Source: Methanoregula sp.
GTDB taxonomy: Archaea > Halobacteriota > Methanomicrobia > Methanomicrobiales > Methanospirillaceae
Reading direction: 5' to 3'
Assembly (NCBI GenBank): GCA_039698055.1
Contig: JBDKTL010000048.1
Location: 47,188 to 111,187 of the forward strand
DNA length: 64,000 bases
In this document: positions 32,363 through 39,388 of the stretch, one piece after another
How positions within the stretch are numbered: position 1 is the stretch's first letter
Layout of the letters: each line of letters opens with the position of its first letter
The notes under the pieces: generated by a model
What the model was told of the DNA's origin: nothing
The model's input: only the letters and a program-made list of their open reading frames with translations
The model's database searches: none
Position numbers and translations under genes: made by a program

Positions 32363-33721
32363 TCACACCCTGCTTTTGATCTGCTTTTTCTGCCGCATCG
32401 CCTGATCATGTCCCGGGTTGAGCGCAAGCACCCGGTCATATGCCGCGATCGCATCGGTATCCCGCTGGACTTTTTTCAGGATAAAACCTTTATAGAGCCA
32501 TGCTTCGACGGATTTTTCGTCAAGCGCGGTTGCACGGTCGCACGCGGCGATAGCCTCTTCGAATTCTCCCAGCATGACGAGATTCTTGGCGCAGCTTATC
32601 CAGGCGCCGGGGTTTTTGGGAGCGATCGCAAGCGACCGTTCATAGGCAGACAGCGACTCGTCATATATCCCGGATTTTTTCTTCGCATCGCCAAGAGCCC
32701 GCCACACATCGGCATTGCCGCTGTTGATGCCGAGATATCGTTCAAACGAACCGGCTGCTTCCCGGTATCTCCCGGTCTTCATGTAGAGATGCCCAAGGAT
32801 ATGCCAGCGGTCCGGGTCCGTGACCGTATCCGGGATCTGTTCCAGTTCGCGGATCATCTCTTCGTACGAACTGCCCGGTGACACGTGAACTGACGGGACA
32901 GGAACCGGTTCTTCCGTTGCCGGAGACATCCGTGACGGATGGTCCTGCACAACCGGGTTCACGCGATCCGGCACGGCCGGAGGAATGTTTTTTGCAGCCG
33001 ATGCAATCGGGGCAGGTGCCGGTTTCCCGTCATGGGTTCCCGGTGATGCCGGTACAGGTACCGGGCGTTCAGGAACAACCACCGGGTAAGAAGACGGGGA
33101 TTTTTGGGCCACGGGCACAGGAGCCGGAACCGGCAGGCTGGTGGCAGGTTGCGGGGATCTTGGATCTGGTGTGACAGGGAGATCTTCTTTGGGATGTTTG
33201 ACGAGAGGTTTGTCCTTAGTGCCGGCCTGGTACCGTTTTCTTGCAACGCTGATGCCGGTGAGGGCATCCATATGTTTTGGATCAAGGCTCAGGACTTTTT
33301 CGTACGCGAGGATCGCCTCGTCATACTTTTCCTGGATGGCAAGGGTAAGTCCTTTGGCATACCATGCCTTGATGAAATCGGGATGGATGGCAAGTGCCCG
33401 GTCATAAAGTGCAAGCGCGAGGGAATATTTACCATATGTTAAATAAATGAGGCCCTTGTAAACAAGCGCATCAGGAAGATCGGGATCGATACCAAGCGCC
33501 CGGTCGAAATATTGCAGCGCCTCGTCAAAGGACCCGATCTGGTACAGGGCATAGCCTTTCAGCTGCGAGGCCCGGGGGCGTCCGGGCTCGATGGCGGCAA
33601 CTTTGTCAAGGATCTCCAGGGCATCGGCATAATATCCCTTGCGGCAGAAGGCTTCTGCCCGGAGGTACATGGACTCCGGATCCATCGCCGGATTCTTCAG
33701 GATTGTTTCAAAGATACCCAT
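32363..33721 (-). CDS. Tetratricopeptide repeat protein with Pro-rich linker
   Basis: Repeated AW..KG..L...A..AYDRAL..P units at both ends. Confidence 0.9.
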   Translation of the reverse strand: MGIFETILKNPAMDPESMYLRAEAFCRKGYYADALEILDKVAAIEPGRPRASQLKGYALYQIGSFDEALQYFDRALGIDPDLPDALVYKGLIYLTYGKYSLALALYDRALAIHPDFIKAWYAKGLTLAIQEKYDEAILAYEKVLSLDPKHMDALTGISVARKRYQAGTKDKPLVKHPKEDLPVTPDPRSPQPATSLPVPAPVPVAQKSPSSYPVVVPERPVPVPASPGTHDGKPAPAPIASAAKNIPPAVPDRVNPVVQDHPSRMSPATEEPVPVPSVHVSPGSSYEEMIRELEQIPDTVTDPDRWHILGHLYMKTGRYREAAGSFERYLGINSGNADVWRALGDAKKKSGIYDESLSAYERSLAIAPKNPGAWISCAKNLVMLGEFEEAIAACDRATALDEKSVEAWLYKGFILKKVQRDTDAIAAYDRVLALNPGHDQAMRQKKQIKSRV

Positions 33722-34429
33722 AAAAACCTCACCCGGGCATTCCTGATCGGTTCACCTGTTTTTTTCTCTGACGGTTCCCCGGGTTTGCCGGCCTTGAATG
33801 TTTCTTCTCGTTACGATGAGTCGTTCCATGCAGGATGCCCGGCAGTGTCCAACTATCGGGTCTCCACATACGCTGTACCTCGTTACCTGCATACTCATGT
33901 TCAACAGTATATAGAATAGCATCCCTATAATATAGTTTTTCAATTTGTTCTCTATATACATTGGATTTATAAAAATATTTTTCCGGTTTACACTGTGCCG
34001 CAGGAGTTGGATGTGGTTACCGAAGATTGGCGTGGCTTGGACAAATGAACAGGAAACTTTTCCCGCACGGCAATGCCCGGGTTTTCCCGGATCGCTTCGT
34101 CTCATCAAATCAATATTTTCAAAACAATTATATAGAGATTGTGCCAAGTCTATTGTGTCGCTTTTTCGAAAAAACCAGGGGGCCGACTCCCGGACCATTC
34201 CAGGTCGTGCGCCCCCGCCCGCAGTGAAACCTCCCATCCACGAGAAAAATCCTGCCGGCAGGTGGGATGGCAAAGGTTTGCCGGTATCGTGGCTGCCCCT
34301 GTTCATCCGGACCGGCAGTCTCTTCCTTGTCCCAAAATGCATCAGCACGCTGTACGGGATGCCCGTGAAAAAATTATTCCGGAATACTACCAGTTCCCCG
34401 TGTCGTGAGGATGACACAGGATAAAAGCC

Positions 34430-35215
34430 ATGAACGTCGATTTCCACGTTCACACCAACCGGTCCGTTGACGGCGTCCACAGCCCCCGGGCGATGGTGAA
34501 ATGTGCACGGGCCGCCGGGCTCGACGCCATCGCTATCACAGATCACAACCGGCTCTTTCCCTGGATCGAGGCACAACGGCTCGCAAAAGAGTTCGGGGTT
34601 CTCGTGATCCCGGGCATCGAGGGAGGGGATATTGCCATCCAGAAACACTGGCTCGCGCTTGGCATTATGGTGCCGCCAGCCGGATGGGCAATCAAAAGCG
34701 TCCTGCGCCGCATCAGGAACCAGGGCGGGCTTTGCGTTGCCCCCCACCCGCACACACGCCTTGGCTATGGCAACTATGCCGCGCTCGGCTTTGACGCAGT
34801 CGAATCCCTCAATGGCGCGGAGCCGGGTTCCAACCGGCAGGTCAGGAACGTTACCCATATCCCGGAAGTAGCCGGCAGCGATGCCCATGCAGGCCCGATG
34901 CTTGGGACAGTATGGACTGAAGTTGATGCGGAAGGCACGGCAGAGGACGTCCTTGAAGCAGTGCGCCACGGGCGGTGCACCCCGGCCGGAACGACCATCC
35001 CCGGACGGGATATTCTCAACTATTATTACCTCTACGCCGTGCACCGCGTAATCCTCAGCCCGCTGGACGCTTTTGCGTCCCTGCGACTGGTCATCAGGAA
35101 TATGAAAAAAGCACATGCGATCGAAACATCGCGCTCCAACCGTTTACCGCAAGAAGTACCAGGTGATTCACATTCATTCAGATGCAGTCCCGCAGATCCA
35201 CTGGATTGGCATTGA
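34430..35215 (+). CDS. PHP-domain metal-dependent phosphoesterase
   Basis: DFHVHT..S.DG, IAITDHN, PGIE, APHP, AGSDAH. Confidence 0.9.
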   Translation: MNVDFHVHTNRSVDGVHSPRAMVKCARAAGLDAIAITDHNRLFPWIEAQRLAKEFGVLVIPGIEGGDIAIQKHWLALGIMVPPAGWAIKSVLRRIRNQGGLCVAPHPHTRLGYGNYAALGFDAVESLNGAEPGSNRQVRNVTHIPEVAGSDAHAGPMLGTVWTEVDAEGTAEDVLEAVRHGRCTPAGTTIPGRDILNYYYLYAVHRVILSPLDAFASLRLVIRNMKKAHAIETSRSNRLPQEVPGDSHSFRCSPADPLDWH

Positions 35216-35963
35216 TCTCAACACCACCGGCTATGCCGTTGTCGTTGCCGATCCCGCCACCGGCCATGTACTGAAACTGGGAAAACAACCGTCCCGCATC
35301 CCGGGCCGGACATGCACGAACTGTACGAAACTGTACAGGGAAGGAAAGATGTGGAAATTAAAAAAGATGAAAACAAGGGAACGCAAGAATTTCCGGTCCA
35401 CGCTCAATACCATCGTCTGGCAGATTGTTTCCTTTGCAGAATCTTCGTGCGCCGGCATCAAGTTCGAAAAACTTTTCAGCCACCATTACCCGGGCCGGAA
35501 AAAGGAGATTGGAGAATATGAATTCTCGTTCCAGAACACCTCGTTTCCCCACCTGCTGCGGCTCGTGGAGAAACATGCATCGGACCGGGGGATCCCGGTC
35601 GATTACGTGAACCCGAACAACACATCGAAAATCTGCAGCCGGTGCGGGGGCCTCGGGCGCCGGGTGCGCAAGCGGTTCGAATGCCCCCACTGCGGTGCGG
35701 TTGTCCACGCGGACGTGAATGCGGCATTCAATATCGCGGCAACTCCTGTCTTTACCAGCAAGGTTGAGGCAGAGCGCATAAAATCCCTCAAAAAGCAGAT
35801 GCGGAGGCTTGCACGCCAGGAGCGGGCCCGGGCCGGTATGCCGCTGCAGGAGGGCGTTTTGGTCGCCCCGTCAGAACTGCCTGCCCGCTGGGACATGACG
35901 GGCACATGGGCGGCGAGATTGGGAGAGGGTTTGCCGGCGACTGCAACGGGCTCGCGACCATGA
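35115..35963 (+). CDS. TnpB/Cas12f-like RuvC plus Zn-ribbon protein lacking the N-terminal lobe
   Basis: RuvC-I IGIDLN, RuvC-II IKFEKL, VNPNNTSKICSRCG...FECPHCG, RuvC-III HADVNAAFNIA; start uncertain. Confidence 0.85.
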   Translation: MRSKHRAPTVYRKKYQVIHIHSDAVPQIHWIGIDLNTTGYAVVVADPATGHVLKLGKQPSRIPGRTCTNCTKLYREGKMWKLKKMKTRERKNFRSTLNTIVWQIVSFAESSCAGIKFEKLFSHHYPGRKKEIGEYEFSFQNTSFPHLLRLVEKHASDRGIPVDYVNPNNTSKICSRCGGLGRRVRKRFECPHCGAVVHADVNAAFNIAATPVFTSKVEAERIKSLKKQMRRLARQERARAGMPLQEGVLVAPSELPARWDMTGTWAARLGEGLPATATGSRP

Positions 35964-36232
35964 TTCTCGAAGTGGTGACCATCACGGTGACCTGCCCCCA
36001 CTGCACGCAGAGGTTTACCAAAAAGGTCTGGTTCCCGATTCACCGGGCGCTTGAAGACCCTGCCTGCATGCAGGCTGACGAATGGGTCATGGCAACCTGC
36101 CCGGCATGCGGATGCACGTCATGCATCAGTGTACAGGCAGGCACCGCCAGGAAAAAAACCGGGACCGGGGGTTGTCCCGTCACACTGCACGAACGATCCG
36201 GGCTGCCCGCTGACAGCGAGGACCTCGGTTGA
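35960..36232 (+). CDS. Small Cys-rich Zn-ribbon protein
   Basis: ATGA overlap with the TnpB-like stop; ITVTCPHC...TCPACGC. Confidence 0.6.
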   Translation: MILEVVTITVTCPHCTQRFTKKVWFPIHRALEDPACMQADEWVMATCPACGCTSCISVQAGTARKKTGTGGCPVTLHERSGLPADSEDLG

Positions 36233-36410
36233 GAAAGAAACGATGACGGGAGTAACGGATCGGGCAAACATTTTTTTTATCTGCACCGTTTGCAAAAATC
36301 CCACAATTCTACAACAATCTTTTTTAATTCCGGTATAAAAATGAAGCCGCATCTCAAAAAGTTGGGCTCATACCAAAAATATATGACTGCAAACGTTCCA
36401 TGAACTGGAT

Positions 36411-36869
36411 ATGCGGGCGGAAAGCGAGATCGATCTCTCGCCGCGAAAGGCTGCGTACGTCAAATACCTGTACGAGCAGGGGGGCCGGGTGAGGACGACA
36501 GATATTGCCGCACGGTTTGTTGTCGATCCATCCACGATCACAAAAACGGTTGCGGAACTCGCGGAGACCGGCCTTATCGCGCACGAACCGTACCGGGGCA
36601 TCTTTCTGACCGAGAAGGGAAAACGGCACGCCGGATACCTCGTCAAGCGCCACCGGATCCTGAGCCTGATGCTCACGCATTACGGGCTTACCCCCGAACA
36701 GGCATGCGAAGAAGCGGCGCGGTTCGAAAGCCTCGTATCCCGGGACACCATCGACCGGGTCTGCGCCGCGATGGGACACCCGCGCCTTGGGGTCTGCGGC
36801 GAGATCACCCACGACGACGGCTGCATGAATCATGTAAAAAAGAGCAGGAAGGCAGAGGGTAAACCATGA
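36411..36869 (+). CDS. DtxR/MntR-family metal-dependent regulator
   Basis: VDPSTITKT HTH, PYRGIFLTEKG, KRHRIL, EAARFES. Confidence 0.9.
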   Translation: MRAESEIDLSPRKAAYVKYLYEQGGRVRTTDIAARFVVDPSTITKTVAELAETGLIAHEPYRGIFLTEKGKRHAGYLVKRHRILSLMLTHYGLTPEQACEEAARFESLVSRDTIDRVCAAMGHPRLGVCGEITHDDGCMNHVKKSRKAEGKP

Positions 36870-36909
36870 TCCTGCCTGCACAGGCCAGGTGGCGGTTATG
36901 AGCCGGGCG

Positions 36910-37710
36910 ATGGTCTCTGAACATATACCGGATCTTGACCTGATCACGTTCTATGCAGAGAAACACCGGTCCCCGTTTTCAGAAGTGAGCCCGTGGACAA
37001 AAATTGCGCTGCTGTTCCTCATCATCACACTTATCACAGTCACCCGGAACATGGCACTGCTCGTTGCCACCTACGCGATCGTACTGGGTTGTTTTGCCTG
37101 TGCAGGATTGCCGGTAAAAAAACTTTTTTACTGGTATACCATCCCCATGATCTTTGTCGTATCGCTGGTGGGAATCATGATCTGGAGCGAACCGGGAGTT
37201 CCCCTGTTTACCCTTCCCCTGCCCGGGTTCCCGCTCACCCTGACCGACCAGGGACTCATTCTCATCGTGACCCTGGTGGTCAAGGCCCTCATTTCCATCA
37301 CGTACTCGATTTTTATTCTTATGACCACCCGGTACGAATATCTATCAGGAGTTATTTCCCGGGTATTTCCCTCCCCGCTCGACCAGATCTTTCTTATGGC
37401 CTACCGGTTCCTCTTCCTCACGCTGGCAATGACCGGCCAGATCATCAAGGCGTTCCGCTCGCGGGGCGGCGGGGTCATTGCAAGCATCAGGACGCAGTGG
37501 AGAATGTTTGCCGGGATATTCGGCCTTGTCTTTATCCGCTCCTTTGAACGGGCCGAACGGGTAAACAAGGCGATGCAGGCCCGGGGATTCAACGGAATCT
37601 ACTCGACAAATGCCACGATTCCGGCCCCGGGATTTGGAGGATATGCCATGCTTCTCTTCCTGTCCATCTTTGTAGTCGCGATCGCGATCCAGTCCAACAA
37701 CCTGTGGTGA
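36910..37710 (+). CDS. ECF transporter T component (CbiQ/NikQ-like)
   Basis: MAYRFLF, FRSRGG, RSFERAERV.KAMQARGF. Confidence 0.9.
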   Translation: MVSEHIPDLDLITFYAEKHRSPFSEVSPWTKIALLFLIITLITVTRNMALLVATYAIVLGCFACAGLPVKKLFYWYTIPMIFVVSLVGIMIWSEPGVPLFTLPLPGFPLTLTDQGLILIVTLVVKALISITYSIFILMTTRYEYLSGVISRVFPSPLDQIFLMAYRFLFLTLAMTGQIIKAFRSRGGGVIASIRTQWRMFAGIFGLVFIRSFERAERVNKAMQARGFNGIYSTNATIPAPGFGGYAMLLFLSIFVVAIAIQSNNLW

Positions 37711-37714
37711 AAAT

Positions 37715-38596
37715 ATGACGACCAGTGCAGATGCAGACGATTCAATATACCGGTGCCATACCGGTACCCATACGGATGAACTGATTCACGTGGACTGTGC
37801 AAGCCATACCTATCCCGACGGCAGTGTCGGCATCCACGAGATGTGTTTCTATGTTTTAAAAAAGGAGATCGTGGTGCTGTGCGGAATAAACGGTGCCGGC
37901 AAATCCACGCTGATCGAACACTTAAACGGCTTGCTGACCCCGTCGCTGGGGCGGGTGATCGTAAGCGGGCAGGATATTACCAAAGGGGCCAACCGGACCC
38001 TCTGGAAAGAGGTCGGCGTCGTATTCCAAAGTTCCGACGACCAGCTCTTTGCCCCGACCGTGCTTGACGATGTCATGTTCGGGCCGCTCAACCTGGGTAT
38101 GACAAAAATGGAGGCAGAAACCACCGCCAGAAATGCCCTCGAAGCGGTCCGGGCCGCAGATCTTGTCGGGAAACTTCCGGATTACTTAAGCGGCGGCCAG
38201 AAGCGTTTGATCTCTATTGCCGGTATCCTTGCCATGAAACCACAGATCATCGCGATGGACGAACCGACATCAGACCTCGATCCGGTGCACGCGGAAACCG
38301 TTGAACGGCTGATACGGAGTTTCCGCGACGAATCGGGCATCAGTATCGTGATTGCAACCCATGACCTCGATTTTGCTGCACGGATTGCAGACCGGGTCTG
38401 CCTTGTCAAAAACGGTTCGGTCTTTGCAGAAGGTACACCGGCAGATATTTTTTACAACGACAATCTCATCAGGCAGGCAGGGCTCAGGGCTCCCCAGATC
38501 GTACGGATATACCAGGAGTACTGCCGGGCAAAAGGCATCGTGCCGGACAAGCGCCCGGTAAGCCTTGAAGAACTGATACCCGCCATGATCGGCTGA
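37715..38596 (+). CDS. ECF transporter ATPase (CbiO/NikO-like)
   Basis: GINGAGKST, LSGGQKR, MDEPT, ATHD. Confidence 0.92.
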   Translation: MTTSADADDSIYRCHTGTHTDELIHVDCASHTYPDGSVGIHEMCFYVLKKEIVVLCGINGAGKSTLIEHLNGLLTPSLGRVIVSGQDITKGANRTLWKEVGVVFQSSDDQLFAPTVLDDVMFGPLNLGMTKMEAETTARNALEAVRAADLVGKLPDYLSGGQKRLISIAGILAMKPQIIAMDEPTSDLDPVHAETVERLIRSFRDESGISIVIATHDLDFAARIADRVCLVKNGSVFAEGTPADIFYNDNLIRQAGLRAPQIVRIYQEYCRAKGIVPDKRPVSLEELIPAMIG

Positions 38597-38746
38597 TGCA
38601 GCACATTTTTTTCGCAGGCAAAAGAAACGATCCGGGATTTTTGGGGAGACTCCAACTTCTTCAGAGTATTTTTATCCCGGTTCGTCCAACCACATCTTTG
38701 AAATCGCACCATCTTTGATTAAATTCGGGGATTGGGGAGTCGTGGC

Positions 38747-39388
38747 ATGGCACATATACATCTCGAAGATGGTTCATTTACCCTGTTCTGGGTTCTTGCC
38801 TGGTGGATTATCGCACTGGTGCTTATCGGCATTATCCTTTTCTGGCTTCGTTTGGTTAAAAAAACGGATAACCGGATGATCACGATTGCGGCATTTTGTA
38901 CTGCTGCATCATTTGCAATTTTCCAGGTAAGCATCCCCATCGCCGGGGGCGTGCACATGAACCTGACGCCGTTGATCGGCATCCTGACCGGGCCGTTTGT
39001 CGGTGGCCTGATTATTTTTATCGTCAATATTTTGTCTGCTGCCATCGGTCACGGCGGCTGGGGCATGATCGGCGCAAACACGCTGGTCAATGCAACGGAA
39101 GTGGTGGCCGCATATCTCATCTACCGGGGATTGAAATCGGCGGGTGTCGGCACGTTCTCCCGGACTGGTATTGCCACGATCGCCGCGCTGTTCATCGGGA
39201 ACCTCGTGATGATGGGAATTATCATCTTGTCCGGTATCCAGGGTTCGAGCCTGACAGCCGATCAGACGTTGGGGGGATTGTCCCTTCTTGTTGCCGTGAA
39301 CATGGCAGTCGCTGTTGTCGAAGCCGTGGTGACCGCATTCATCGTCACCTATATTGAACGGCGCCGGCCCGATATGCTGGGGGCGTAG
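38747..39388 (+). CDS. ECF S component (CbiM/NikM-like)
   Basis: MAHIHLEDG N-terminus, GGVHMNL, GHGGWGMIGAN. Confidence 0.88.
   Translation: MAHIHLEDGSFTLFWVLAWWIIALVLIGIILFWLRLVKKTDNRMITIAAFCTAASFAIFQVSIPIAGGVHMNLTPLIGILTGPFVGGLIIFIVNILSAAIGHGGWGMIGANTLVNATEVVAAYLIYRGLKSAGVGTFSRTGIATIAALFIGNLVMMGIIILSGIQGSSLTADQTLGGLSLLVAVNMAVAVVEAVVTAFIVTYIERRRPDMLGA

What the first reader, a model, noticed from the sequence alone, without database searches (positions are those of the whole stretch)
34430..36232. PHP phosphoesterase + 'headless' TnpB-like RuvC nuclease + Zn-ribbon protein: possible domesticated nuclease module
Seen: the 282-aa ORF keeps all three RuvC acidic residues (GIDLN, IKFEKL, HADVN) and the CSRC/CPHC zinc finger. 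RuvC-I lies only ~30 aa from the start, so the REC/WED lobe that TnpB/Cas12f use for guide RNA and TAM recognition is missing. It has an extra CTNC after RuvC-I and a basic/helical C-terminal tail. It overlaps an upstream PHP gene by ~100 bp and is ATGA-coupled to a downstream CPHC..CPAC protein that occupies the place where an omegaRNA/right end would sit. There is no TnpA transposase nearby and no frameshift. Established: TnpB has been domesticated repeatedly (Cas12, Fanzor, TldR), and PHP domains remove 3'-phosphates and occur in repair and defence systems. Inference: an exapted guide-independent (or trans-guided) nuclease working with an end-healing phosphoesterase, rather than a decaying IS.
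Basis: partly seen in the sequence, partly recalled or inferred. Interest (0 to 1): 0.78.

Follow-up and report, generated by a model that had tools for sequence, protein, structure and literature searches.

The report
Domesticated headless TnpB nuclease operon
A methanogen keeps a transposon-derived nuclease that has lost its guide-RNA-binding half as an ordinary inherited gene, here placed in a small operon with a phosphoesterase and two tiny proteins, which makes it a candidate for studying what such cut-down nucleases do.

Summary
ORFs 34430-35215 (PHP), 35115-35963 (TnpB-like) and 35960-36232 (4-Cys zinc ribbon) exist. The TnpB-like protein matches only the RuvC/zinc-finger half of TnpB.

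It is not a decaying IS. It belongs to a family of about 250 aa found in 44 of 121 Methanomicrobiales genomes, usually at fixed chromosomal sites. 97 of 104 loci keep the D-E-D and CxxC..CxxC motifs, and core dN/dS is about 0.12-0.14. A conserved GTG (window 35163) leaves only 13 residues before the RuvC-I motif.

The window copy belongs to a paralogous clade of 16 loci, seen only in records labelled Methanoregula or Methanoregulaceae. It is nested inside the resident family, whose usual neighbours are DUF2070 and a K+ channel gene.

Only this clade carries PHP upstream (intact in 11 of 16) and the zinc ribbon downstream (intact in 9 of 16). All 15 loci with enough upstream sequence share an invariant TATA + CTATTGTGTCGC block. 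That block opens a previously unnoticed, probably leaderless ORF of 72-97 codons ending at the PHP start.

RuvC-only, non-mobile TnpBs are already in print for Halobacteria (PMC10691335). The PHP/zinc-ribbon/orfX operon was not found in print. The mechanism (a guide-independent endonuclease plus a phosphoesterase) is inferred, and the partners are often lost.

The parts
34120..34135 (+). A-rich stretch plus TTATATA (34128-34134): promoter-like BRE/TATA block
   Evidence: TATATA columns invariant in 12 of 12 aligned clade-B upstream regions; sequence read. Its promoter role is inferred from the archaeal TATA consensus (established knowledge).
34150..34164 (+). Invariant motif CTATTGTGTCGC(A/T)TT. 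Its GTG (34155-34157) lies 27 nt downstream of the first T of the TATA box, so it is the likely transcription start and leaderless start codon.
   Evidence: Invariant in 12 of 12 aligned loci. Among the 143 loci held, exact 12-mer hits fall in 14 distinct clade-B loci (17 locus records, 3 of them re-fetches of L001 or L004) and in no other locus; L035 has one mismatch. The exact 11-mer occurs once in the own genome, and 1-mismatch hits are at control level.
34155..34424 (+). orfX: 89-codon ORF from the invariant GTG to a TAA 5 nt before the PHP ATG
   Evidence: The frame is open for 72-97 codons in 13 of 13 loci examined. In 8 of the 10 of those loci with an intact PHP it ends as ATGA/GTGA on the PHP start, as it also does in L042 (same frame) and on the remnant PHP start in L040. 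In every one of the 11 loci tested, at least one of the other two frames holds stops, and both do in 10 of 11 (L055: 2 and 0). Shuffles stay open in 2-12% per locus. dN/dS is 0.36-1.16, so the amino-acid sequence is barely constrained. Translation has not been shown.
34430..35215 (+). PHP-family metal-dependent phosphoesterase (domain about residues 1-200; unconserved tail to the stop)
   Evidence: Pfam PHP + PHP_C. NCBIfam CehA/McbA domain 80.5 bits against a cut-off of 80. Metal-ligand columns H6, H8, H39, E64, H106, D151, H153 are invariant or nearly so in 44 sequences. dN/dS 0.16. Nearest solved structures: TM0559 (2anu), 3e0f, 5'-3' exoribonuclease 7ug9.
35115..35963 (+). Headless TnpB-like RuvC nuclease (282 aa from the ATG; 266 aa from the conserved GTG at 35163)
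   Evidence: It aligns to residues 126-309 of a 348-aa full-length relative (41% identity). The AF2 model has pLDDT 81.4 and its best Foldseek hits are the RuvC halves of Cas12f/TnpB.
35163..35165 (+). Conserved GTG start, 39 nt before the W codon of WIGIDLN, inside an SD-like AGGTGAT
   Evidence: GTG at -39 in 13 of 16 clade-B loci and at -45 in the other 3. In clade A an in-frame stop lies 1-2 codons upstream of it. The PHP stop overlaps it as GTGA in L032, L033 and L039.
35214..35216 (+). RuvC-I aspartate D34 (GAT)
   Evidence: Invariant; sequence read.
35466..35468 (+). RuvC-II glutamate E118
   Evidence: Invariant in 56 sequences.
35634..35693 (+). TNB zinc finger C174-x2-C177 ... C190-x2-C193
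   Evidence: All four Cys invariant; PF07282 matches residues 146-207.
35712..35714 (+). RuvC-III aspartate D200
   Evidence: Invariant in 56 sequences.
35754..35834 (+). Basic C-terminal helix (residues 214-240), followed by a disordered tail
   Evidence: AF2 helix 214-240; pLDDT is below 50 for residues 253-273. Tail dN/dS is 0.45 against 0.14 for the core.
35960..36232 (+). Small 4-Cys zinc-ribbon protein (CPHC...CPAC), CpXC-like, ATGA-coupled to the nuclease gene
   Evidence: The four Cys and both Pro are invariant in 9 of 9 orthologues. Pfam CpXC E 0.0077, below its cut-off. Atlas feature hits to CpXC clusters at 0.90-0.91. dN/dS about 0.42.

Best explanation
The 282-aa ORF (probably 266 aa, starting at GTG 35163) is a domesticated TnpB derivative. 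It keeps only the RuvC nuclease fold, the TNB zinc finger and a basic C-terminal helix. The whole WED/REC lobe, about 125 residues in its nearest full-length relatives, is gone.

Shown here:
- The cut-down form is a conserved gene family in Methanomicrobiales. It is single- or two-copy, sits mostly at fixed chromosomal sites, and is under purifying selection with an intact D-E-D/4-Cys site.
- The window copy belongs to a later duplicate ('clade B'), seen only in Methanoregula/Methanoregulaceae-labelled records. Clade B sits in a compact same-strand gene string: invariant promoter, small orfX, PHP phosphoesterase, nuclease, CpXC-like zinc ribbon. The gene junctions overlap (ATGA/GTGA) or lie a few bases apart.

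Inferred, not shown:
- The protein acts as a metal-dependent endonuclease without a guide RNA of its own, cutting DNA or RNA to 5'-phosphate/3'-OH ends.
- In clade B the co-translated PHP enzyme trims or degrades those ends or products, for example as a 5'-3' exonuclease or phosphatase.
- The zinc ribbon and orfX act as dispensable accessory or regulatory subunits.

The cellular role (repair, nucleic-acid turnover or defence) is open.
For: Truncation:
- The guided_TnpB profile is matched only from position 188 of 389.
- Residues 22-208 align to 126-309 of a 348-aa relative.
- The PDB sequence match 82-226 aligns to 270-415 of a 415-aa TnpB.
- The AF2 model (pLDDT 81.4) hits Cas12f/TnpB RuvC halves, best 8dzj_A at E 6.7e-10.

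Conserved family:
- 420 database proteins matched. 117 of the 120 listed are 227-307 aa.
- 44 of 121 genomes of the order have a match, and 8 of 9 further genomes of the own genus.
- 97 of 104 short-family loci keep all four motifs by regular expression.
- Core dN/dS is 0.137 in clade B and 0.115 in clade A.

Immobility:
- Flanks are syntenic.
- DUF2070 lies upstream in 57 of 109 loci, and a K+ channel gene lies nearby in 37.
- G000 has two short copies and no full-length TnpB or Y1 TnpA.

Clade B module:
- Its 16 loci form one clade with SH-like support 99.
- PHP is intact in 11 of 16, the zinc ribbon in 9 of 16, and all three genes in 6 of 16.
- PHP dN/dS is 0.16 and its metal ligands are conserved.
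- One in-frame PHP-nuclease fusion protein exists (P0015).
- The promoter motif and the orfX frame are conserved.

Expression: short contigs from RNA libraries of two studies lie on the PHP, nuclease and nuclease/zinc-ribbon junction regions. This is a weak hint only.
Against: - No activity, RNA-binding or complex data exist.
- The partners are dispensable. Five of 16 clade-B loci lack an intact PHP and 7 of 16 lack an intact zinc ribbon, yet the nuclease stays intact.
- Clade A and the other Methanomicrobiales lineages have none of these partners.
- Close PHP relatives (47-57% identity) stand alone in other genera.
- Of the two fusion proteins, P0008 holds only the C-terminal half of PHP and looks like decay. 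No longer fusions were found (weak evidence).
- orfX shows almost no amino-acid constraint.
- dS is saturated (about 1.5), so the dN/dS values are rough.
- Loss of WED/REC does not by itself prove guide independence.
Confidence: 0.6

Rival explanations
1. The PHP, zinc-ribbon and orfX neighbours are only neighbours. The nuclease works alone, as its clade-A paralogue must, and the adjacency is a lineage-specific gene order without a shared function.
For: Partners are missing or degraded in many clade-B loci while the nuclease persists. The other 93 of 109 loci have no such partners. The PHP subfamily exists alone in other genera.
Against: The start/stop overlaps at three junctions recur in diverged lineages. 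One shared invariant promoter is present even where PHP is lost. PHP is under purifying selection in this context. One in-frame fusion exists.
Confidence: 0.22
2. A toxin-antitoxin-like or defence module: the RuvC nuclease is the toxic effector, and the small coupled proteins (zinc ribbon and/or orfX) restrain it.
For: Small ORFs are translationally coupled to a nuclease. Clade B is patchy within the genus, found in 3 of 10 genomes of g1 (G000, G076, G119). Altae-Tran et al. proposed a TA reading for another archaeal non-mobile TnpB clade (PMC10691335, section 11, read).
Against: Seven of 16 loci lack an intact zinc ribbon yet keep an intact catalytic nuclease, which is hard to reconcile with an antitoxin. 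The loci sit among housekeeping genes (pst/phoU, or the DtxR/ECF transporter in the window), not in defence islands. PADLOC gave only Cas12 hits to the RuvC half and a weak PHP hit.
Confidence: 0.1
3. It is still RNA-guided, using a trans-encoded or leader-derived RNA despite lacking WED/REC.
For: RuvC and the C-terminal parts of TnpB/Cas12f contact guide RNA in solved complexes (established knowledge). A long conserved upstream region exists in clade B.
Against: No full-length TnpB, and hence no omega-RNA donor, was found in G000. No Rfam match at E <= 1 in 33000-37000. Leader folds are no better than shuffles, z from -1.1 to +1.4 in 10 of 10 loci. The leader is kept as an open reading frame. 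No conserved downstream non-coding block appears in 49 clade-A loci.
Confidence: 0.06
4. A decaying IS200/IS605 remnant, that is, a pseudogene fragment.
For: It is a 5'-truncated TnpB homologue. A few family members are broken (7 of 104 lack a motif; G081 carries an internal deletion).
Against: The truncation point and start are conserved, the loci are syntenic across genera, core dN/dS is 0.12-0.14 and the catalytic residues are invariant.
Confidence: 0.02

Closest known systems
Non-mobile 'RuvC domain alone' TnpB branch of Halobacteria (~220 aa; example WP_004214924.1), Altae-Tran et al. 2023, PMC10691335 (section 11 read)
   Same: A very short TnpB derivative without the guide-binding lobe, with an apparently active RuvC site. 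[quoted passage not shown]
   Different: A different class (Methanomicrobiales, not Halobacteria), and about 250 aa with a conserved C-terminal helix. Common descent was not tested, because the named accession could not be fetched. The paper's main text does not mention PHP (0 occurrences), a zinc-ribbon partner or an upstream small ORF. Its supplementary tables could not be read.
GATase-TnpB of Sulfolobaceae (~280 aa, WED + RuvC), same paper
   Same: A small, catalytically intact, non-mobile archaeal TnpB next to a fixed enzyme gene, with no room for a downstream RNA gene.
   Different: That form keeps the wedge domain and sits beside a glutamine amidotransferase. The form here has only 13 residues before RuvC-I, and its partner, where present, is a PHP phosphoesterase.
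Canonical TnpB / Cas12f (for example ISDra2 TnpB 8h1j, AsCas12f 8dzj)
   Same: RuvC fold, D-E-D triad, TNB CxxC..CxxC finger.
   Different: No WED/REC lobe, no omega RNA or IS ends detected, single-copy and syntenic. Below the NCBIfam family cut-off (77 against 100 bits).
TldR / Cas12f-derived transcription factors (PMC10705468, PMC13472631; seen only as search listing and abstract)
   Same: Domesticated TnpB/Cas12f derivatives fixed next to host genes.
   Different: Those are nuclease-dead and keep RNA guidance. Here the active site is intact and the guide-binding half is missing.
TrpH/YciV-type PHP phosphoesterases (PDB 7ug9 5'-3' exoribonuclease; 2yb1) and TM0559 (2anu)
   Same: PHP + PHP_C architecture with conserved metal ligands.
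   Different: Scores are far below the NCBIfam equivalog cut-offs for RNase RNM (31 against 375) and nucleoside bisphosphate phosphatase (41.9 against 400). The substrate is unknown.

Membership tests
TnpB (RNA-guided endonuclease, NF040570 / PF07282) | RuvC-I/II/III acidic triad | tested here: met
   D34, E118 and D200 invariant; all motifs present in 97 of 104 family loci.
TnpB (RNA-guided endonuclease, NF040570 / PF07282) | TNB zinc finger CxxC..CxxC | tested here: met
   PF07282 73.6 bits against a cut-off of 26.3; four Cys invariant.
TnpB (RNA-guided endonuclease, NF040570 / PF07282) | N-terminal WED/REC lobe that holds the omega RNA and reads the TAM | tested here: not met
   The profile is matched only over positions 188-388 of 389, at 77 bits against a cut-off of 100. 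The protein aligns from residue 126 of a 348-aa relative. The N-terminal 130 aa of that relative find nothing in G000 (a search without a positive control).
TnpB (RNA-guided endonuclease, NF040570 / PF07282) | Adjacent omega RNA / IS ends; multi-copy mobility | tested here: not met
   No Rfam hit. No terminal repeats. No conserved downstream block in 49 clade-A loci. Loci are syntenic and single-copy.
Non-mobile RuvC-only TnpB derivatives (Altae-Tran 2023) | Short protein made of the RuvC part alone, intact site, fixed in a lineage, not mobile | tested here: met
   Median 252 aa, counted from 13 residues before the RuvC-I W to the stop.
Non-mobile RuvC-only TnpB derivatives (Altae-Tran 2023) | Same phylogenetic branch as the Halobacteria clade | not tested
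   The named protein could not be fetched. In the phylum scan, all 12 matches at E <= 1e-68 outside the order, in 9 genomes, had open frames of 328-444 aa (9 of them 335-358), apart from one 209-aa copy in G176, that is, full-length forms.
TldR (nuclease-dead TnpB repressors) | Inactivated RuvC site with retained guide RNA | tested here: not met
   The triad is intact and no guide RNA was detected.
PHP phosphoesterase (PF02811 + PF13263) | PHP domain with His/Asp/Glu metal ligands | tested here: met
   Both Pfam models over their cut-offs; ligand columns conserved in 44 sequences.
RNase RNM / 3',5'-bisphosphate nucleotidase equivalogs | Score over the NCBIfam equivalog cut-off | tested here: not met
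   31 against 375 bits and 41.9 against 400 bits.
CpXC small zinc-ribbon proteins (PF14353) | Two CPxC motifs; score over the gathering cut-off | tested here: inconclusive
   Both CPxC motifs are invariant in 9 of 9. Pfam gives 16.7 bits against 25.4, and 4 of 9 members match at E <= 0.1. Atlas feature score 0.91.
Type II toxin-antitoxin pair | Toxin never kept without its antitoxin | tested here: not met
   Seven of 16 clade-B loci have an intact nuclease without an intact zinc ribbon. The role of orfX was not tested.

The most novel reading that the evidence does not exclude
A guide-lobe-less RuvC nuclease, fixed in methanogens since before the Methanomicrobiales families split, was duplicated in a lineage labelled Methanoregula. 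The duplicate was built into a new four-gene, translationally coupled system: a leaderless orfX, a PHP exonuclease/phosphatase, the RuvC endonuclease and a CpXC zinc ribbon. The system acts as a protein-targeted (not RNA-guided) nucleic-acid processing or defence machine. That would be a route of TnpB exaptation opposite to the Cas12 and TldR routes.
Probability: 0.3. Interest if true: 0.7.

Novelty: new variant of a known kind. Interest (0 to 1): 0.55.

Why it matters
Every characterised descendant of TnpB (Cas12, Fanzor, TldR) kept RNA guidance, whether or not it kept cleavage. This family did the reverse. It discarded the guide-binding half and kept an intact catalytic core under purifying selection in several families of methanogens.

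It therefore makes one question testable: what can a bare TnpB RuvC/TNB core do, and how is it targeted? The clade-B operon offers candidate partners for biochemistry (PHP, a CpXC zinc ribbon, a small leaderless ORF). It also offers natural 'knock-outs', since related loci have lost one partner or another.

The family is also a practical annotation point. Database sources name its members 'transposase' or 'zinc ribbon domain-containing protein'.

Tried and rejected
- Complex prediction (PHP 1-245 + zinc ribbon 1-70 + nuclease 17-250, with the nuclease as partner) scored 0.00 against a mark of 0.32. That is no verdict, and it is not used for or against binding.
- The search for homologous proteins with lengths 'longer' found no fusion of 495 aa or more. 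The tool itself rates this as weak evidence.
- Rfam on 33000-37000 at E <= 1 gave no match.
- Folding the first 120 nt after the invariant motif in 10 loci gave z-scores from -1.1 to +1.4, so a structured leader RNA was dropped.
- A conservation scan of 49 clade-A loci found conserved blocks only just upstream (TATA-like, AGGAGG, SD-like AGGTGAT) and at the C-terminal codons. Nothing resembling an omega RNA lay downstream.
- Repeat search around the locus gave only 14-20 nt chance-level pairs.
- RNA-library contigs: X1 and X2 cover 34736-34938, 35447-35645 and 35920-36161 at depth 2-6. X3 and X4 cover nothing, and the leader/orfX region is uncovered. Uncovered parts are not evidence of silence, and DNA carry-over cannot be excluded.
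- The 'extra CTNC' motif was rejected as a feature.
- The protein-representative search: 21 of the best 150 clusters look headless (profile start and protein start both <= 20, length 200-300). However, a cluster look-up of 10 short representatives, 9 of them among those 21, showed that at least 3 clusters also hold members of 333-387 aa. Some are therefore fragments, and the count is not used as a family size.
- The cluster look-up gave almost no taxon names, so the link to the Halobacteria branch stays untested.
- PADLOC gave only Cas12 models on the RuvC half and a weak PDC-M49A hit on PHP.
- The supplementary tables of PMC10691335 (S1, S5), which may list this clade, could not be read.
- Literature searches for 'TnpB' + 'PHP domain' (0 papers) and 'TnpB' + 'phosphoesterase' (4 papers; the 3 listed are unrelated by title and abstract) are the basis for 'not found in print'.
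Full report
**What is there.** Three same-strand ORFs occupy the stated coordinates.
- 34430-35215 encodes a 261-aa PHP + PHP_C protein.
- 35115-35963 encodes a 282-aa protein. It matches the Cas12f1-like TNB domain at 73.6 bits (cut-off 26.3). It matches NCBIfam guided_TnpB only from profile position 188 to 388 of 389, at 77 bits, below the cut-off of 100.
- An ATG at 35960 overlaps the TGA of that ORF and opens a 90-aa protein with two CPxC pairs.

Against solved structures, the sequence aligns only to the C-terminal halves of TnpB and Cas12f. The best match is 9nzp_A: query residues 82-226 on chain residues 270-415 of 415, E 1.8e-14. An AlphaFold2 model built on 56 sequences (pLDDT 81.4, pTM 0.68) shows the RuvC strands and helices, the zinc ribbon and a long helix at 214-240. 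Foldseek places it on Cas12f (8dzj_A, E 6.7e-10), TnpB (8h1j_A, E 1.3e-5) and, far lower, bacterial RuvC (7w8d_B, E 5.8e-3).

**Is it a broken IS?** No.
- A protein-database search gave 420 relatives. 117 of the 120 listed are 227-307 aa long, at 53-67% identity.
- In 121 genomes of the same order, 44 have a match at E <= 1e-10. So do 8 of 9 further genomes of the own genus.
- Reading the open frames shows the same architecture everywhere. The motif WIG(I/V)DLN lies within about 15 residues of an upstream in-frame stop or start.
- A GTG 39 nt before the W codon is present in 13 of 16 loci of the window's clade; the other three have a GTG at -45. In the sister clade it is the first possible start, because a stop lies one or two codons upstream. 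In the window this GTG is 35163, so the mature protein probably has 13 residues before RuvC-I.
- The nearest full-length relatives are small TnpBs of about 347-369 aa, multi-copy in some genomes (four copies in G039; eight matches in G176). The window protein aligns to residues 126-309 of one of them at 41% identity.
- The N-terminal 130 residues of that relative find nothing in the window's genome (no positive control). The assembly (93% complete) has no full-length TnpB and no Y1 TnpA, while both family searches rang in control genomes.

**Inheritance and selection.**
- DNA comparison of flanks and a scan of one genome per species (115 confirmed relatives, 80 kept) show most copies at the same chromosomal place. 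A DUF2070 membrane-protein gene lies upstream in 57 of 109 loci examined, and a K+ channel gene lies nearby in 37.
- Other Methanomicrobiales families have their own syntenic sets.
- By regular expression, 97 of 104 short-family loci keep RuvC-I, II, III and the CxxC..CxxC finger. The seven exceptions include frameshifts, an in-frame stop and two probable motif variants.
- Nei-Gojobori dN/dS for the core is 0.137 (clade B, 67 usable of 78 pairs) and 0.115 (clade A, 67 of 91). It rises to about 0.45-0.49 in the C-terminal tail. dS is about 1.5 and partly saturated, so these values are rough. They still argue clearly against neutrality.

**The window's copy is a paralogue with its own operon.**
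- G000 holds two copies. One is the window gene. The other lies on contig 30 at the DUF2070/K+ channel site, at 59% identity.
- In a FastTree of 104 rows (99 distinct), rooted on four full-length relatives, the window gene falls in a clade of 16 loci with SH-like support 99. That clade is nested among DUF2070-linked copies from Methanoregula/Methanoregulaceae-labelled records.
- Ten assemblies hold both a clade-B and a clade-A copy (contig names; G000 and G076).
- Within the own genus, clade B was seen in 3 of 10 genomes: G000, G076 and G119. It is accessory, whereas clade A is near-core.

- PHP is intact upstream in 11 of 16 loci, fragmentary in 3 (L038, L040, L043) and absent in 2 (L003, L055).
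- The zinc-ribbon gene is intact downstream in 9 of 16, a pseudogene in 2 (L004, L042) and absent in 5.
- All three genes are intact in 6 of 16.
- The junctions are tight. The PHP stop overlaps the GTG as GTGA in three loci and runs into the RuvC-I codons in six. The zinc-ribbon ATG overlaps the nuclease stop in four loci, including the window.
- Many clade-B loci lie between pst/phoU genes and a sensor gene. The window and its two closest relatives lie elsewhere, near a TPR gene. In the window a DtxR-type regulator and an ECF transporter lie downstream. Clade B therefore relocated a few times but is not multiplying.

**The partners.**
- The PHP protein keeps the metal-ligand columns (H6, H8, H39, E64, H106, D151, H153) in 44 sequences and has dN/dS 0.16.
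- It is a specialised paralogue. A second PHP gene, about 40% identical, is present in 40 of 41 genomes of the family, including G000. Close stand-alone relatives (47-57% identity) occur in three other genera without an adjacent nuclease.
- Its nearest solved relatives are TM0559, a Bifidobacterium phosphoesterase and a 5'-3' exoribonuclease. It fails the equivalog cut-offs for RNase RNM and the bisphosphate nucleotidase.
- RuvC-type nucleases leave 3'-OH and 5'-phosphate ends (established knowledge). A 3'-phosphatase 'healing' role is therefore not what the pairing suggests. A 5'-end-dependent exonuclease or phosphatase acting on RuvC products fits better. This is inference.
- Two database proteins fuse PHP_C to the nuclease. 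P0015 is an in-frame fusion of a nearly whole PHP. P0008 holds only the C-terminal half and looks like decay.
- The zinc-ribbon protein keeps both CPxC motifs in 9 of 9 orthologues. It resembles CpXC proteins below threshold and evolves fast (dN/dS about 0.42).

**The 'leader'.** Aligning the region upstream of PHP revealed an invariant block in 12 of 12 aligned loci. An A-rich stretch plus TTATATA is followed 20 nt later by CTATTGTGTCGC(A/T)TT (window 34128-34134 and 34150-34164).
- Among the 143 loci held, the exact 12-mer falls in 14 distinct clade-B loci and in no other locus; L035 has one mismatch. It also occurs once in the own genome.
- It is present even where PHP is absent (L003, L055), about 250 nt before the nuclease start.
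- The GTG inside it lies 27 nt after the first T of the TATA box, the spacing expected for an archaeal transcription start. It opens a frame of 72-97 codons in 13 of 13 loci examined.
- In 8 of the 10 of those loci with an intact PHP, that frame ends as ATGA or GTGA on the PHP start, as it also does in L042 (same frame) and on the remnant PHP start in L040. In the window it ends 5 nt before the PHP start.
- In every one of the 11 loci tested, at least one of the other two frames of the same stretch holds stops, and both do in 10 of 11. Shuffled sequence stays open in only 2-12% of trials per locus.
- Amino-acid constraint is weak (dN/dS 0.36-1.16). Short conserved pieces are the VSHLE/VSLF start and an HLxRTGS(F/L) block.
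- The RNA folds no better than shuffles, and Rfam finds nothing.

I read this as a promoter plus a leaderless small ORF (orfX, window 34155-34424) whose translation feeds into PHP. It has not been shown to be transcribed or translated.

**How it most likely works.**

Shown:
- an intact, selected RuvC/TNB core without the guide-binding lobe;
- no donor of an omega RNA in the genome;
- no conserved structured RNA beside either clade;
- in clade B, a tightly coupled four-ORF string under one conserved promoter.

Inferred:
- the protein is a guide-independent, metal-dependent endonuclease;
- the basic C-terminal helix, or partner proteins, supply substrate binding;
- in clade B, PHP processes the ends or products;
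- the small proteins are dispensable accessories.

The frequent loss of partners with the nuclease retained keeps a real rival alive: the neighbours may not be functionally required. It also argues against a toxin-antitoxin reading with the zinc ribbon as antitoxin.

**Expression.** Support is weak. Three short contigs from RNA libraries of two studies lie on PHP, on the nuclease, and across the nuclease/zinc-ribbon junction.

**Comparison with what is known.** Altae-Tran et al. 2023 (PMC10691335; abstract, 'find' passages and the second part of section 11 read) already describe non-mobile, catalytically intact short TnpBs. [quoted passage not shown] The other is a Sulfolobaceae clade of about 280 aa (WED + RuvC) next to a glutamine amidotransferase.
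- The kind is therefore known.
- The Methanomicrobiales family, its duplication, and the orfX-PHP-nuclease-zinc-ribbon operon were not found in that main text ('PHP' 0 occurrences). Two full-text searches also found nothing relevant.
- The supplementary tables could not be read and may list the clade.
- The protein is not a member of TnpB in the functional sense, because the WED/REC lobe, omega RNA and mobility tests are not met. It is not a TldR, because the active site is intact.

**Verdict.** The three-protein module is real but lineage-restricted and often incomplete, and it turns out to have a fourth, upstream element. The mechanism is inferred. I rate it a new variant of a known kind, of moderate interest.

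Noticed in passing
window 34120-34424: An invariant TATA + CTATTGTGTCGC block, with a 72-97-codon frame starting at its GTG and ending at the PHP start. It appears in all 15 clade-B loci that have enough upstream sequence (L035 with one mismatch). Probably a leaderless small ORF (orfX) that nobody has annotated. Its amino-acid sequence is barely constrained.
   Followed up: yes
G000 contig 30, 32926-33624 (L002:1486-2277): A second headless TnpB-like gene in the same genome (263 aa, 59% identical), at the DUF2070 / K+ channel site shared by most relatives. This is the resident, near-core copy.
   Followed up: yes
L002, L005-L010 and other clade-A loci, last codons: Clade-A proteins end in a conserved (E/G)NLLAVLE motif, conserved even at the DNA level. 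Clade B instead ends in an (E/M)L(L/P)xxW(D/S/N/T)-type tail, seen in 12 of 15 clade-B rows aligned. These may be different partner-binding peptides.
   Followed up: no
G000:C30:32845-33528 (L152): The guided_TnpB profile match of the clade-A copy extends back to profile position 146 across an in-frame TGA. The 5' untranslated region may therefore still carry a degenerate remnant of the lost WED part.
   Followed up: no
window 35161-35167 and clade-A loci: The conserved GTG start sits inside AGGTGAT(C/T), a perfect Shine-Dalgarno-like string. It is unclear whether this acts as the start, as a ribosome-binding site, or both.
   Followed up: partly
G000:C16:104469-105062 and 39 other genomes of the family: A housekeeping PHP paralogue of about 225-235 aa, about 40% identical to the window's PHP, is present in 40 of 41 genomes. 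The operon's PHP is a specialised extra copy.
   Followed up: partly
L003:1399-2415 (minus strand): In this PHP-less relative the orfX frame runs straight into the nuclease frame, giving one 338-aa ORF from the invariant GTG.
   Followed up: partly
window 36411-39388: Downstream lie a DtxR-type metal-dependent repressor (Pfam), a membrane protein, an ABC-type ATPase and a further membrane protein. I read the last three by eye as CbiQ-, CbiO- and CbiM-like, an ECF-type metal transporter; this was not tested. They appear unrelated to the nuclease module.
   Followed up: no
L021 (G039, four copies), G176 (eight matches): The nearest full-length relatives are small (about 335-369 aa), multi-copy TnpBs in other Halobacteriota genomes. 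They presumably represent the active IS lineage from which the headless family arose.
   Followed up: partly
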